Below, piece by piece: positions 25,401 through 40,400 of a stretch of 64,000 bases of DNA (position 1 is the stretch's first letter; every line of letters begins with the position of its first letter). A program made the position numbers. The DNA is from Saccostrea cucullata (lineage: Eukaryota): the NCBI RefSeq assembly GCF_032062105.1, contig NW_026936150.1:186001-250000 (forward strand). The letters are read 5' to 3'.

Positions 25401-28400
25401 GGTTCTCAAACAGAGATAGGGAAAGGGAACTGGAGGCCCAGATTAGACGGGAAATGGGGAAAATTGAAATGCATGACGGGAATTTCAAACCATGGGGAAG
25501 AGATGCTTATCAGAATCCCTCACATCATCCGGTAAGATTGCATCATGGACATTTGCTGTCGTCTGCTTTTTAACAACGACGTCATTGTTTTTGTAGCAAT
25601 TTCATCGTATATCCGTTTAGCCATTTCATTCTTTTCATGTAGTTTAGAGGGCAACATGGACTTCAAGATTTTTCAAATGGACAATCAGAGCCAATTTGGC
25701 TAAATGGATTGGATTTCAGAAGAGTTTTCCTTCTCTAAAATTGACTGCTATGGAAATATATCTTCTCTTCACATATCATTCAATAAAATTTCAAGCGCTC
25801 ACAGCCACAGGGAAAGTAAACTAAAGTGGAATTCCTAGGTTGCCTTAAAACCAGTGTACAGGTTAATGCAAGGAGATTTGGATGGATGATACAAAAGATA
25901 AATATTAGCCATATCTTAGTTTCGTAAGCGCTAGTTGATTTCCTTTTATTGATACATGGACCGTTAATCACCGTTTGATTATTTTCTTTACGTGGTCGTT
26001 GTCATAGCATGATGTACCTCAATGAAAAGATCCTTTGAGAAAATTTTCTGAGCGAGCTTACAATACGATTGAACTCCATTTCAGTCCGAGGAAGAAAATT
26101 ATATGCGTTTTCTTTGTGTACATTCGTTTCCAAATCCGCGTAAAAATCAAACACAAAAAGATTTATTAACATAACCGACGATATAGCATTATGCTTCACA
26201 CATTTTGATGATAAATTTTTGCAGAAGTAAAGGCAAGGCACGGAAGTTAACAAAAATTATAAAACAGCAATTAAATTCTTTAAATCAAATATCAAATAGC
26301 AGTAGAAATGAAAAGAAGATCTTTATATTTTTGTTCCTTTAGGGGATATTAAAATTCGTGATATTTTATGCACTTCATTCATATGTTTGTATAGAACTCT
26401 TTCAAGCTTACATGCAATTATTTATTTCAACCTGGTCTTGGTTCCTTTAGAATTTTATATCAATACTGCCTTTACAGGTTTCACTATTGATTTTACGTGG
26501 TATCTTTTATGAGATTTAGCTTGATATTGGATCTGTCTATCGATATCCCAAGTAATCGATACGGCTTCCATTTGTAGGGCCCTAACTATGTAAATGACCG
26601 CTACTTACGCCCAGAGGAGCGCCAGGTTTGATTCTTTTCGTGGGCTTATGTTCTTTACACGTCATCTGTATATAATCTCAGTCATTTACTCATCATCTCA
26701 GTCATTTATCCATAAATCATTTCAAAAAAGGCTTAATTTAGAAACATTTATATAAAAAACATTTTTGTTTCATATTCCATATCGTTTATCACGCATCTTC
26801 ATTATGCTTTGTGCAGGTTCGTTTTTTCGCATATTCATCAAGTGTATGCTTTATTTCACGAATGCTTGTATTCAGAAGTACTTTGTCGACGTTATTTCTT
26901 TGAAATTTGAATGCACAATTTTTGGATCAGTTGCAAAATTATTCAACATTTCTTCTTAAGAGAACTGAAAGTAAATCATGTCTGTGTGGAGTGGTTGTTG
27001 TAAACAGTTTGCATTGTGATGTCTTTTACTCTGAAAGTTTTTCTATTCGTAATTTACTAATTTATCAAGTGGAGAATCATATTTGAAATTTGAATGTTTA
27101 AAAAGTATGATTTTTCAGTTACGACATCAACTGGACTACGACAAGTCTCCTGTGACTGAAAGCAAACCCGAGAACCAGGTTTGTCACTGAAGCCCAGCTT
27201 AGGTGTTGTGACCTGTACAATTCTCCTCAAAACAATAGCATACATTATTCAGATCATTCAAAGTGCATGTTGGTGTGATTAAAGAAAGCAAGACCTTGCT
27301 TTTACCTAATTAACAGATATATTTTTGGATTTTCTCAGGCACCATGTTTTTTCTTTAGTGTTGAATTATAAATTCTTGTTTGAGAACATTTACATACCTA
27401 CGTTCAAAGAAGCAGGTGCCCTTGAGTAACCAATAAATGCAGTATAAATCAAATAAATCTTTATTTAGACAAACTTCCTATCATGTTTACTCACCTTACA
27501 TTCTCATTTCTTCCACAATCTATACAAATAAGACATATAAGGTGTATTGACATTGAATTTAATTCTGCAAGCGATACAATGTCATATATCAAAATGAGTC
27601 CAATAAATACATGACCGTCTTAAATTGAATGTTACATATCTTACTCTGTAAAAGATTTCACATTTTTTAACAATTAAAATTGACATCTTTTTCATTATTC
27701 TCTGTCTCTTTGTTCATTTTCTCCGGTTATACTCTTAAAAATCAGATTTAAGCTAAGTAAATAAAATAAGAATGGTGTTCTAGTGTCTGCATTAAATATT
27801 CTTGTAGGATGTTAGGCCCCAGACTGAACCAGCCCTTCCAATTCGGTCTGATTTCGAGGTATATAATCCGTATCATCGTGTGACGCTTTGGTACACAAGG
27901 ATGAATCTATGAACTGTCATGTTTTTGTGTGTATGGTTCACGACGGTTTTGCACTTGAATCAAAGTATAAATATATTCATTGTGTACTTTCCAAACTCTT
28001 GAGCATCAAACTGTATATATATTTATTTCTAGCACATCGGGTATCACCGGGGCGTGTGCCAGTATATTGTATGCATCTGTATAGGAATGGCGTGTATACA
28101 GAACAAATTATCAACATTGTACCTTTATTTCTATTGATATGTTTTGCAGCCCAAGTCTACCAACAGTGGTGTCTACCTCTTTGTCAGAACCAATAAACTC
28201 GCCAAGGCTGATGTTGTTAAAGCGCTTCAGGAGGGACGTTCTGTTCTCGCCAACTCGTACGGACAACTCAAAGGCATCGCCACTAGTAGAGAGGTAGGCC
28301 TTACTTCAGTATCAAGACATAGATAATTAAGGTACATTGGTGTGATTTTGCAAGCAATAATGCATTCCCAAGTTACTGGACGAAATACTGCTGGAAAAGC

Positions 28401-37400: not shown

Positions 37401-40400
37401 GAATATAGGCAAATCCGCCAGGACATTCACAGACGCATCGAAAACCTTCCGTTTTATACTAACAGGTTCAAACCGGTTAGTTTCCTGTTTACCTTGGATG
37501 CTTACGTGTAAACTTCCGGTAAGCCGAGGACAGTCTTTGTAAACCCCCTGTTTACGTTGGATACTTAGTGTAAACTACCTGATATGTACGTGTTACCTAG
37601 GAGATTAAGATTTCTTGACCGAATTCTTGACAGCACGATAGTAAAGTGGACTATATTATATAAAGAGTAATTATGCTTTTTAATCTATTCTGAGTCATAA
37701 TATATTTCCTACACTGCAATTCACATTTCTAAGTAGAGTAGAATAGTGTTGCAAACACAGCGTAGAATTCATCAGGAATGTCACCCGTCCAGTGTTAAGA
37801 CAGCCCCACGTTGTATCTGTTGTTTTCTGTAGTCTAGCTGTACACCGCTGGTGTAGGGGTGTGTTGTTGGATGGAGAATGGGAACCAGTTTATCTCCAGT
37901 GTCTCCTTAGTGCTCATATTAACATAAATCATGTGATATCTATACATTTGTTATCATTATTATACAGAAATCAATATTTTGTATTACGTTTTATTAAATA
38001 TATTCTGATATTGCTAGTTTTTCTTTCTCTGACATTTTATTCTAAGAAGAAAAGAAAATAACATGTAAGCACTGTCTATTTATGTATACAAAAGCAGTTA
38101 AAGGGGAGGGTGAGCTATTTGGTACGATGATAAAAATGATGTATTCAAGAGGTATAATGAAAAATATAGGGATAACGAACAGTATTCAAGGTCAAAAGTC
38201 CATCAAACATTACAAAATACATGTAAGAGCAGAAAAAACACGGACCTCCAAAACATTAGAGCTGGGATCAGCTGCCATGGAGGAGTGAGCATCCCCTGCT
38301 GACCGGTCACACCCACCGAGTGATCCTTGTCATGATCAGAAAATAACAGAAAAATATGTCGTCAATTCACTTTATAAATAATGGACTTACAATTCGTATG
38401 AAAAACATCACTCAGCATTTGACTCAATGATAAATTGTATTTGCTGACAAGGTCATTGTATCGACCACAGAACTTACGAAATGATAGCTTTAAACGAGAC
38501 ACCTGATATTCTTGTTTGCCAATAATTTACCTAGTTTCAAAAATTGTTCATCCGCAGAGCATGCTCTTGCATACCGAATCAACTGAGATATATAAACTCC
38601 GTATGCAGGTGATGAAGGTATATTGCTGCATGAGTAAGGAAAGTTGACGATAGAAAAGTTGGAAGTCATCACGTTTATCATATAGCTTGGTTGTTAGATT
38701 ACCATTAACGTCTTTTTCAAGTCAAATATCCAAGTATGAAGCAGATGTGTCAGACTCTGTCTGTGGTATCTTTTATCTCAAGCTCACCAGGATATATCGT
38801 ATCGACACAAGAATGAAAATTATCATTTGTTAATTGACAATACGTCGTCGATATATCTTAATGTCGACTTGAAGGCCACAGAAAGTGTTTTCCTCCTTTC
38901 CAAAAAAGAACTTAACACATAATTTGATGTGAATAAAAGTATATTCAACAACAATCATACAATACATTTAACTTGGAACATGCGCAAAAGCAGAATAAAA
39001 GAACATGAATATCTTAACAAGATAAAACATTCGTCTATAGAGCTCAGTTCTCAAAATATTTACAAAGTGACAGATAATATTACTTATCAGACATTTCTCT
39101 GTCTGAATAGAATTCAGTAAATTCAATTCATCTTTACAAATGTATAATTCAATTGCATTACATGAAGTATTCATAATCATATACAAATAAGTCAGTCATA
39201 TACAGGGATTCGAAATAAGTCCAAAGAGGCATAATTATCGATGGTTGCTTACGTGAAATTTGGAATACTGTATTTGTCAATTATTCTCATAAACCTTATT
39301 TTACTAAACATAATTTTATGCTTTGCATGTTTTTATCTTGTAAAAAATGTTATAGAAACAACATTGAGACAAAACATATCAATATAAAATAAATTTCTTC
39401 GCACAAAAATAACAGAACAAAACAAATATATTCAACGCAAAAGATTATCAGTGCGTGTCGTTATGGTATTGCATTAGTGTAGTTCGTTATTTATATCGAA
39501 ATTATGTTCAAACTTCCTTAACAAGCTGTTAAAATATTTGTTTACCAAAATGATTTATTACATTAAAAGCACTGTTTAACAGTATAAAAAGAAGCACCAT
39601 ACTTCCATTTTCTCAATGAATATCTAATTACATAATTGAATTTTACGAGAGTTGTTCATTTCTGCCATCTGGTGTTCTTCTTATTTCCTTCTCTTCACCG
39701 GAAGTTCGTCTTCTCTGTAAGATGACAACCAAAACCAGGACTACGCCAATCAAACCAGCGGTAGCCGGAAGTAGTGTATAGAGCATGGAAGAATTCTGGT
39801 CTCTTTGCTGACCAGACTGGAAATATGAAATTACAGATCTAGATTGCAGTCCTTTTATATGTTCCTCTTAATGTCCATTTTATTAACGCATTTAAAAAGT
39901 GAACTGTAAAAAGGCAATGTTTCTGCCTATCTTTAAGTTTTGGCAAAATTATTTACACTATTCTTAATCTCGATACCAGCAAAAAATTAATACAATAATA
40001 TATATTTCAAAAATAAATATTTACATTTCTAAATGAACTAAGCTTCTTCCAGGGTTGGTAAAGAACCAAGTCATCTGTATCCCTTTTTCTTCTTCCTAAA
40101 ATGTATAAATATCAGCTGCAGTATGTGTAATGTAATAAAATAATAGCTCAGCAATCTACAAATATGGAAATAAAATATTCGAGCGCTATACCCCAAATAT
40201 TTAATCTCTTATTTCAATTAATAAGTGTATGTTCCTAATGTAAGCAGGCACTTCTTCTGCAACAAAAAATAGCTCTTCCGGGCCCGAAACGGAGATTAAC
40301 AATAACTTTGCGTTTTTATATTAAAAACTGCAATTTTGTGTATTGAAATAGTTCGATCAATATCTAATGCAATAAAAAAAATCGCAAGACCCAGGTAGTT

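What the first reader, a model, noticed from the sequence alone, without database searches (positions are those of the whole stretch)
28150..37511. Two intact paralogous 3-exon DUF1330 endings but only one exon for the domain's first half
Seen: cassettes A and B have identical intron positions and phases, both begin I(N/Q)LLEG in phase 0, both are intact, yet their proteins are strongly diverged, which implies old duplication under selection. I could not find a counterpart of exon 28150-28293 between 29.6 and 36.2 kb. Inference: alternative terminal cassettes chosen by polyadenylation or splicing; the first DUF1330 repeat would be a chimera of a constant N-half and a variable C-half.
Basis: partly seen in the sequence, partly recalled or inferred. 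Interest (0 to 1): 0.75.

Follow-up and report, generated by a model that had tools for sequence, protein, structure and literature searches.

The report
Oyster gene with two alternative endings
An oyster gene of unknown function ends in either of two old, duplicated three-exon blocks that share one upstream half-domain exon, an ordinary kind of alternative splicing that public annotation of this genome already records.

Summary
The window is oyster DNA: its exons match Saccostrea cucullata LOC134244914 proteins at 100%. Exon E0 (28150-28293) is followed by cassette A (28759-28981, 29111-29347, 29463-29551) and, 6.6 kb later, cassette B (36194-36440, 36773-37012, 37399-37511). Both have GT-AG sites and intron phases 0/1/1. 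A and B are about 40% identical. tblastn, an E0 profile and Pfam find no second E0.

RefSeq isoform X9 ends in A. Isoforms X5, X18, X21 and X24 join E0 directly to B. Of 106 oyster proteins fetched, 21 show E0->A, 79 show E0->B, and 6 are short fragments. Intron-less 1.5-1.9 kb contigs carry both junctions.

A and B form separate orthologous groups in six oyster species. An unnamed relative carries three cassettes.

AlphaFold2 predicts two ferredoxin-like repeats in both isoforms, with E0 supplying beta1-alpha1-beta2 of repeat 1. Only repeat 2 of the A isoform passes Pfam's DUF1330 cut-off.

Verdict: alternative last-exon blocks made by tandem duplication. Real and conserved, but an ordinary mechanism.

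The parts
14392..25531 (+). Constant and cassette exons of the N-terminal, mostly disordered R/D/Y-rich part of the gene (LOC134244914). These are many small exons used in different combinations by the annotated isoforms.
   Evidence: tblastn of P0001, P0030 and P0027 against the window. AlphaFold2 pLDDT is below 50 over most of residues 1-400 of P0001.
24911..25531 (+). Alternative first exon: an open frame that extends exon 25313-25531 upstream and encodes a different N-terminus.
   Evidence: The N-terminus of P0071 (unnamed contig protein, B-type ending) maps as one block to 24911-25528, 72% identity over 206 columns, E 1e-90. P0108 and P0110 carry a similar N-terminus.
28150..28293 (+). 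E0, the single shared exon (48 codons, phase 0/0). It encodes beta1-alpha1-beta2 of the first ferredoxin-like repeat.
   Evidence: borders; unique in the window; only 4 distinct variants among 101 oyster proteins held at that point; secondary structure.
28294..28758 (+). 465-nt intron from E0 to A1. The A1 acceptor has a long pyrimidine tract (ttttcttttttctttcag).
28759..28981 (+). A1: C-half of repeat 1, proximal cassette.
29111..29347 (+). A2: most of repeat 2, with a DUF1330 match just below the cut-off as a single exon (22.3 bits).
29463..29551 (+). A3 coding part, ending in the stop TGA at 29549-29551.
29768..29790 (+). Two AATAAA hexamers (at 29768 and 29785), 217 and 234 nt after the A stop. 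They are candidate poly(A) signals of the A ending.
   Evidence: This is a motif scan only; use of the sites is not shown.
29552..36193 (+). Spacer between the cassettes. It holds the A 3'UTR, then AT-rich sequence with fragments of a dispersed repeat (for example 32981-33417 and 35398-36071). There is no DUF1330-like or E0-like remnant.
36194..36440 (+). B1: C-half of repeat 1, distal cassette, with a 9-residue insertion (TRTGDYWLE) relative to A1.
36773..37012 (+). B2: most of repeat 2 of the B ending.
37399..37511 (+). B3 coding part, ending in the stop TAA at 37509-37511. It has an 8-residue insertion relative to A3.
37993..37998 (+). First ATTAAA after the B stop, a candidate poly(A) signal. 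The next AATAAA is at 38932.
   Evidence: Motif scan only.
38224..38895 (-). Inverted copy of the dispersed repeat that also lies at 35398-36071 (+), so cassette B sits between inverted arms.
   Evidence: inverted pairs I1-I3, I5-I7, I10 and I11, 48-142 nt each, 78-92% complementary.

Best explanation
One oyster gene (Saccostrea cucullata LOC134244914) has two tandem, homologous, three-exon terminal blocks, each with its own stop codon. The donor of the shared exon E0 (28293) is spliced either to the nearby A1 acceptor (28759) or, skipping the whole A block and its poly(A) site, to the B1 acceptor 7.9 kb away (36194). The two endings are therefore mutually exclusive by construction: they are alternative last exons. 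Each mRNA encodes the same N-terminal, largely disordered region plus a roughly 230-240 aa C-terminal module predicted to consist of two ferredoxin-like (alpha+beta barrel superfamily, DUF1330-related) repeats. E0 supplies beta1-alpha1-beta2 of repeat 1. The chosen cassette supplies the rest of repeat 1 and all of repeat 2, about three quarters of the module. The blocks arose by a tandem duplication older than the oyster family, and both have been kept. Shown here: the exon anatomy, the uniqueness of E0, both junctions in public models and in intron-less contigs of related oysters, the orthology of A and of B across species, and the predicted fold. Inferred: that splice-site choice competes with cleavage at the A poly(A) site, that the choice is regulated, and that the two endings differ in function. 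The biochemical function is unknown.
For: Anatomy: canonical sites and identical phases. A and B are homologous, 42% and 40% identical. E0 is unique in the window and there are only six cassette exons. Junctions: P0001 maps E0->A and P0027/P0030 map E0->B on the window. Of 106 oyster proteins fetched, 21 have E0 directly followed by an A-type cassette and 79 by a B-type cassette; 6 are short fragments without E0, and none has both cassettes. Contigs of 1.5-1.9 kb encode complete proteins with E0->A (P0014-16, P0018) or E0->B (P0067-69, P0101, P0071). Age and selection: per exon, A-A identity between species is 64-97%, B-B 55-95% and A-B 35-48%. In the tree, oyster A cassettes form one group (100/97) and oyster B cassettes another (100/97). 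The first cassette of P0108 joins A (94/95) and its second and third join B (99/94). Among Crassostrea and Saccostrea, E0 is at least as conserved as any cassette exon: 94-100% against A1 76-96% and B1 73-95%. Fold: pLDDT is 83-97 over residues about 401-628 of P0001, and mostly 77-97 over about 301-538 of P0027 with dips to 68-69. Both show two beta-alpha-beta-beta-alpha-beta repeats. The best PDB match for both is 2pgc, a two-repeat alpha+beta barrel protein (E 5.1e-07 and 2.3e-05; TM by target 0.57 and 0.55). DUF1330 is matched by 20 of the 41 family members scanned.
Against: I saw no RNA data from S. cucullata itself. Its isoforms are automatic RefSeq models, and the intron-less contigs resemble M. 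gigas rather than this species. The poly(A) sites are hexamer matches only. Nothing shows regulation or a functional difference between the endings. B evolves faster than A: for exon 2, B-B identity is 55-65% between genera against A-A 80-86%, which could mean weaker constraint. Repeat 1 has no Pfam DUF1330 match and repeat 2 of B is below the cut-off. The repeat 1 versus repeat 2 profile comparison is weak: probability 46%, E 2e-4, 52 columns. P0108, in another species, strings three cassettes into one protein. If that were real rather than a prediction artefact, the cassettes would not always be exclusive.
Confidence: 0.9

Rival explanations
1. Cassette B is the 3' remnant of a separate tandem gene copy that lost, or still has, its own 5' exons and promoter. 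On this view the E0->B models are annotation artefacts.
For: The 6.6-kb spacer is full of repeat fragments that could have destroyed upstream exons. One short protein, P0065 (163 aa), starts inside B1 without E0.
Against: There is no E0-like or DUF1330-like remnant in the spacer. Of 80 B-type proteins, 79 carry E0 directly before B1, and the exception is a short fragment. Independent intron-less contigs join the full N-terminal region and E0 to B. The same arrangement is annotated in six species.
Confidence: 0.04
2. The E0->B junction is real but is low-level splicing noise or read-through past a weak A poly(A) site. B would then be a decaying duplicate without a function of its own.
For: B evolves faster than A. 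Its repeat 2 falls below Pfam's DUF1330 cut-off. The B1 acceptor has a weaker pyrimidine tract than the A1 acceptor.
Against: B is open and orthologous in all six oysters, including Ostrea edulis, with 55-95% identity per exon. B-type cassettes also occur in the more distant P0108. AlphaFold2 folds the B module with high confidence. B-type forms are the majority of the annotated isoforms fetched, 79 of 100 full-length, though the number of models is not a measure of abundance.
Confidence: 0.05
3. The choice between A and B is directed by competing RNA pairings (docking site and selector sequences), as in arthropod mutually exclusive exon clusters.
For: None was found. Inverted repeat copies do flank cassette B, but they are dispersed-repeat copies.
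Against: The longest exact complementarity between the E0-A1 intron and the A-B spacer is 11 nt, and 159 of 200 shuffled introns reach 11 nt or more. Exclusivity needs no such device, because each block ends the transcript.
Confidence: 0.02

Closest known systems
Alternative last exons, i.e. splicing-coupled alternative polyadenylation (textbook example recalled, not from a call: calcitonin/CGRP)
   Same: One shared upstream donor, and two downstream terminal exon sets each with its own stop and candidate poly(A) signal. Use of the distal set requires skipping the proximal acceptor and poly(A) site.
   Different: Each alternative here is a three-exon block, and the two blocks are homologous copies rather than unrelated sequences. 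The switch point lies inside a folded domain.
Mutually exclusive homologous exons created by tandem exon duplication (general principle recalled from the literature; no paper read here)
   Same: The alternatives are paralogous, of similar length and the same phase. They substitute for each other within one protein fold, and both are conserved across species.
   Different: The duplicated unit is a terminal multi-exon block, so exclusivity follows from transcript termination. It needs no steric, spliceosomal or RNA-pairing rule, and no pairing signal was found.
DUF1330 (PF07045) and two-repeat dimeric alpha+beta barrel proteins such as PDB 2pgc
   Same: Repeat 2 of the A isoform passes Pfam's DUF1330 cut-off. 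20 of 41 family members match DUF1330. The nearest Atlas clusters are bacterial DUF1330 proteins of 223-231 aa, scores 0.92 and 0.90, which are leads only. The predicted fold best matches two-repeat ferredoxin-like proteins.
   Different: The module is fused to a roughly 400-aa disordered animal N-terminal region. Repeat 1 and the B repeats are too diverged for Pfam. TM-scores to solved structures are moderate (0.55-0.57 by target) and sequence identity is 11-13%.

Membership tests
Alternative last exons (alternative 3'-terminal exon blocks) | Two or more downstream terminal exon sets behind one shared donor, each with its own stop codon and a poly(A) signal | tested here: met
   E0 donor at 28293. 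The A block ends in TGA at 29551 with AATAAA at 29768 and 29785. The B block ends in TAA at 37511 with ATTAAA at 37993. The poly(A) signals are motif matches only.
Alternative last exons (alternative 3'-terminal exon blocks) | Transcripts exist that join the shared exon to each alternative, and none carries both | tested here: met
   21 proteins with E0->A, 79 with E0->B and 0 with both among 106 oyster proteins; 6 are short fragments. Intron-less contigs carry each junction. For S. cucullata itself I saw only RefSeq models.
Alternative last exons (alternative 3'-terminal exon blocks) | Regulated choice by tissue, stage or condition | not testable with these tools
   No expression data were available.
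Homologous alternative exons from tandem duplication | The alternatives are paralogous, with the same intron positions and phases | tested here: met
   A1/B1 42% identical and A2/B2 40%. Phases 0/1/1 in both. Boundaries fall at the same aligned residues.
Homologous alternative exons from tandem duplication | Both copies are conserved as separate orthologous groups | tested here: met
   Each oyster cassette type forms its own group with 100/97 support. P0108_c1 joins A, and c2 and c3 join B.
DUF1330 (Pfam PF07045) | Score at or above Pfam's gathering cut-off (23 bits) | tested here: met
   A isoform P0001, residues 527-620 (repeat 2): 33.6 bits, E 5.3e-08.
DUF1330 (Pfam PF07045) | The same cut-off applied to the B isoform | tested here: not met
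   P0030: 18.5 bits, below 23, over residues 562-610 only. Single exons B1, B2 and B3 gave no match.
DUF1330 (Pfam PF07045) | Repeat 1 (E0 + A1 or E0 + B1) recognisable as a DUF1330 domain | tested here: inconclusive
   No DUF1330 match for E0, A1 or B1, nor for that region within P0001 and P0030. The predicted structure is a ferredoxin-like beta-alpha-beta-beta-alpha-beta with high pLDDT. The profile comparison of repeat 1 with repeat 2 gives probability 46%, E 2e-4, 52 columns in register.
RNA-pairing-directed mutually exclusive splicing (docking site / selector) | Complementary intronic sequences between the shared exon's intron and the region upstream of the variants | tested here: not met
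   Longest exact complement 11 nt; 159 of 200 shuffles reach 11 nt or more. Only exact matches were tested, and conservation could not be examined.

The most novel reading that the evidence does not exclude
The terminal cassettes form a conserved, evolving array: two in oysters, and three in the unnamed relative P0108, where the B type was duplicated again. The array would let one gene mount different three-quarter modules of a pseudo-dimeric alpha+beta barrel on a constant beta1-alpha1-beta2 half-domain. That would give isoforms with different ligand or partner specificity, multiplied by the many N-terminal micro-exon combinations and an alternative promoter. E0 would then be constrained to fit every cassette.
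Probability: 0.3. Interest if true: 0.45.

Novelty: already known. Interest (0 to 1): 0.27.

Why it matters
The splice pattern is already present in the public annotation of this genome and of five other oyster species, so the discovery value is small. The case is nonetheless a clean, deeply conserved example of a switch point placed inside a folded domain. A single exon encodes half of a ferredoxin-like repeat and must fold together with either of two partners that are only about 40% identical. That makes it a natural test case for how much sequence divergence one half of an alpha+beta barrel tolerates in the other half. It could also give a handle on the unknown function of animal DUF1330-related proteins. 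I found no paper on it. A search for DUF1330 with oyster found 0 papers. A search for DUF1330 alone found 10 papers, of which 9 were listed; their titles and abstract openings concern bacteria, mostly plant-associated ones (listing only). A search for the five oyster LOC identifiers found 0 papers.

Tried and rejected
1. A hidden E0 counterpart for cassette B was looked for and not found. tblastn with word size 2, an E0 profile over all six frames of the window and Pfam on 77 spacer ORFs were all negative.

2. A third cassette in the window: none.

3. Docking/selector RNA pairing. A smaller exact-complement count with 200 shuffles showed nothing above chance.

The species carrying the three-cassette protein P0108 therefore stays unknown.

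5. Solved structures by sequence gave only a marginal hit to the DUF1330 structure 3lo3 (E 0.12).

6. Pfam failed because of a frame error in one of my coordinates. It was corrected.

The window's own sequence was searched exon by exon. Full-length work used public database proteins by their ids.
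Full report
**What the window is.** The window is AT-rich eukaryotic DNA, 28-37% G+C outside 44-50 kb, with a single N run at 357-501. The exon 29113-29346, searched on its own, matches at 100% a 628-aa protein named 'uncharacterized protein LOC134244914 isoform X9 [Saccostrea cucullata]' (P0001). Its other matches are all from oysters or unnamed contigs: 26 of 29 candidates passed E 0.001. The exon 36775-37011, searched on its own, matches at 100% four other isoforms of the same gene (X24, X21, X18 and X5; P0027-P0030). Its further matches are isoforms from S. 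echinata, C. virginica, M. gigas and C. angulata: 75 of 114 candidates passed. This is an oyster contig, not human. The window's own sequence was searched exon by exon, and full-length comparisons used the public database proteins by their ids.

**The observation.** Reading the sequence and tabulating the sites gives these exons:
- E0: 28150-28293, 144 nt.
- A1: 28759-28981. A2: 29111-29347. A3 coding part: 29463-29551.
- B1: 36194-36440. B2: 36773-37012. B3 coding part: 37399-37511.

All acceptors are AG and all donors GT. The phases are 0, 1, 1 in both cassettes, at the same aligned residues. A1/B1 are 42% identical over 78 columns and A2/B2 40% over 75 columns.

A counterpart of E0 does not exist in the window:
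- tblastn with word size 2 finds nothing better than E 20 between 29.6 and 36.2 kb.
- A profile of the four distinct oyster E0 variants finds only E0 itself among 2990 six-frame pieces; the next best is E 3.5.
- None of 77 ORFs of 36 aa or more in the spacer matches DUF1330.

A cassette profile finds exactly the six known cassette exons.

**The junction.** Mapping P0001 on the window gives E0 followed by A1-A3. Mapping P0030 and P0027 gives E0 followed by B1-B3, and their sequences read ...GIATSRE|IQLLEGNEGW. Of the 106 oyster proteins fetched, 21 have E0 directly followed by an A-type cassette and 79 by a B-type cassette. Six are short fragments without E0, and none has both cassettes. Only four distinct E0 sequences occur among them, and within each species the A and B forms carry the same one. 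So A and B forms of a species share one exon.

Independent of gene models, unnamed assembled contigs of 1.5-1.9 kb encode complete 426-457 aa proteins with E0->A (P0014-16, P0018) or E0->B (P0067-69, P0101, P0071). The same exons span about 23 kb in this window, so those contigs must come from spliced RNA. They are near-identical to named M. gigas proteins. RNA evidence from S. cucullata itself was not available to me.

**Age and constraint.** A search with residues 399-628 of P0001 returned 100 proteins, all of them oyster proteins or unnamed contig proteins. It also brought in the B-type isoforms of Ostrea edulis (P0102-P0106). Per-exon identities are:

| Comparison | Identity |
|---|---|
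| A with A, between species | 64-97% |
| B with B, between species | 55-95% |
| A with B, within or between species | 35-48% |
| E0, among Crassostrea and Saccostrea | 94-100% |
| E0, against O. edulis | 77-81% |

An exhaustive profile search of 1.84 billion representatives found only 65 proteins at E 0.001 or better, so the family is small. One of them, P0108 (788 aa, unnamed), has an E0-like segment followed by three cassettes in a row.

In a maximum-likelihood tree of 27 cassette segments, the oyster A cassettes and the oyster B cassettes each form one group (100/97). P0108's first cassette joins A (94/95), and its second and third join B (99/94). The A/B duplication is therefore older than the oysters sampled, and the B type was duplicated again in another lineage. 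I read its concatenation of cassettes as most likely a gene-prediction artefact, but this is not shown.

**What the protein looks like.** Pfam finds DUF1330 only in repeat 2 of the A isoform: residues 527-620, 33.6 bits against a cut-off of 23. Repeat 2 of the B isoform scores 18.5 bits. E0, A1 and B1 have no DUF1330 match. Among 41 family members scanned, 20 match DUF1330.

AlphaFold2 was run with a 41-row alignment, and both models are confident in the C-terminal module:
- A isoform (P0001): pLDDT 83-97 over residues about 401-628.
- B isoform (P0027): mostly 77-97 over residues about 301-538, with dips to 68-69.

Both models show two beta-alpha-beta-beta-alpha-beta repeats. The first roughly 400 residues (about 290 in P0027) are mostly below 50. 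In P0001, E0 (residues 399-446) carries strand 406-413, helices 414-433 and strand 437-442. That is the first half of repeat 1, and A1 begins at the next strand (447-451). The B model has the same plan plus an extra hairpin (355-364) from the B1 insertion and a longer last helix.

Foldseek against the PDB gives the same best hit for both, 2pgc, a two-repeat protein: E 5.1e-07 and 2.3e-05, TM by target 0.57 and 0.55. The next hits are other two-repeat ferredoxin-like proteins. A profile comparison of repeat 1 with repeat 2 is weak but in register: probability 46%, E 2e-4, 52 columns. The protein Atlas lists bacterial DUF1330 proteins of 223-231 aa as nearest clusters (0.92 and 0.90), which is a lead only. 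So 'two DUF1330 repeats' is supported at the level of fold, and for repeat 2 of the A isoform at the level of family. For repeat 1 it stays an inference.

**Mechanism.** The E0 donor can pair with the A1 acceptor 465 nt away, which has a long pyrimidine tract. A2, A3, a stop and AATAAA hexamers at 29768 and 29785 then follow. Alternatively the donor pairs with the B1 acceptor 7.9 kb away, followed by B2, B3, a stop and ATTAAA at 37993. Each block ends the message, so the endings exclude each other without any further rule. This is the known alternative-last-exon design, with alternatives that are paralogous blocks from a tandem duplication.

I looked for complementary sequences that could bring E0 and B1 together. 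None exceeded chance: the longest was 11 nt, and 159 of 200 shuffles did as well. How the choice is set, and whether the endings differ in function, is not known. The biochemical role of DUF1330 proteins is also unknown.

**Comparison and novelty.** I found no paper on the gene or on DUF1330 in molluscs:
- DUF1330 with oyster: 0 papers.
- DUF1330 alone: 10 papers, 9 listed, all on bacteria (mostly plant-associated) by title and abstract opening; I saw the listing only.
- The five oyster LOC identifiers: 0 papers.

The mechanism is a known kind. The one uncommon feature is that the switch point lies inside a folded repeat, so a constant half-domain must fit two partners that are about 40% identical.

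**Left open.**
- RNA evidence in this species.
- Real poly(A) sites.
- Regulation of the choice.
- The taxa of the distant relatives.

Noticed in passing
window 24911-25531 (+): An open frame extends exon 25313-25531 upstream and matches the different N-terminus of P0071 (72% over 206 columns). P0108 and P0110 carry a similar N-terminus. It looks like a conserved alternative first exon, hence an internal promoter, of the same gene.
   Followed up: partly
window 35398-36071 (+) and 38224-38895 (-); further fragments 32981-33417 and 33786-33867: Copies of one dispersed repeat lie in inverted orientation on both sides of cassette B (segments of 48-142 nt, 78-92% complementary). Their ORF fragments have no Pfam match. 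Whether the downstream arm is transcribed, or has any effect on splicing, is unknown.
   Followed up: partly
window 14392-25531 (+): The N-terminal part of the gene is built from many very small exons (some 12-20 codons), used in different combinations by the annotated isoforms (numbered up to X24 among those fetched for this species and up to X40 in M. gigas). The region is R/D/Y-rich and predicted disordered.
   Followed up: partly
window about 44700-49600 (+): A G+C-richer stretch (43-45%) holds several long open frames of 127-235 aa. From their sequence alone, and not from any family search, I read them as a broken LTR-retrotransposon copy (gag-like and reverse-transcriptase/RNase H-like frames). 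They were only listed.
   Followed up: no
protein P0108 (unnamed representative): A 788-aa predicted protein from an unnamed source strings an E0-like segment and three cassettes together. The second cassette lacks the third exon's part. This is probably a gene-prediction read-through of a three-cassette array in another species.
   Followed up: partly
window 357-501: A run of 145 N, the only one in the window. It was left untouched.
   Followed up: no
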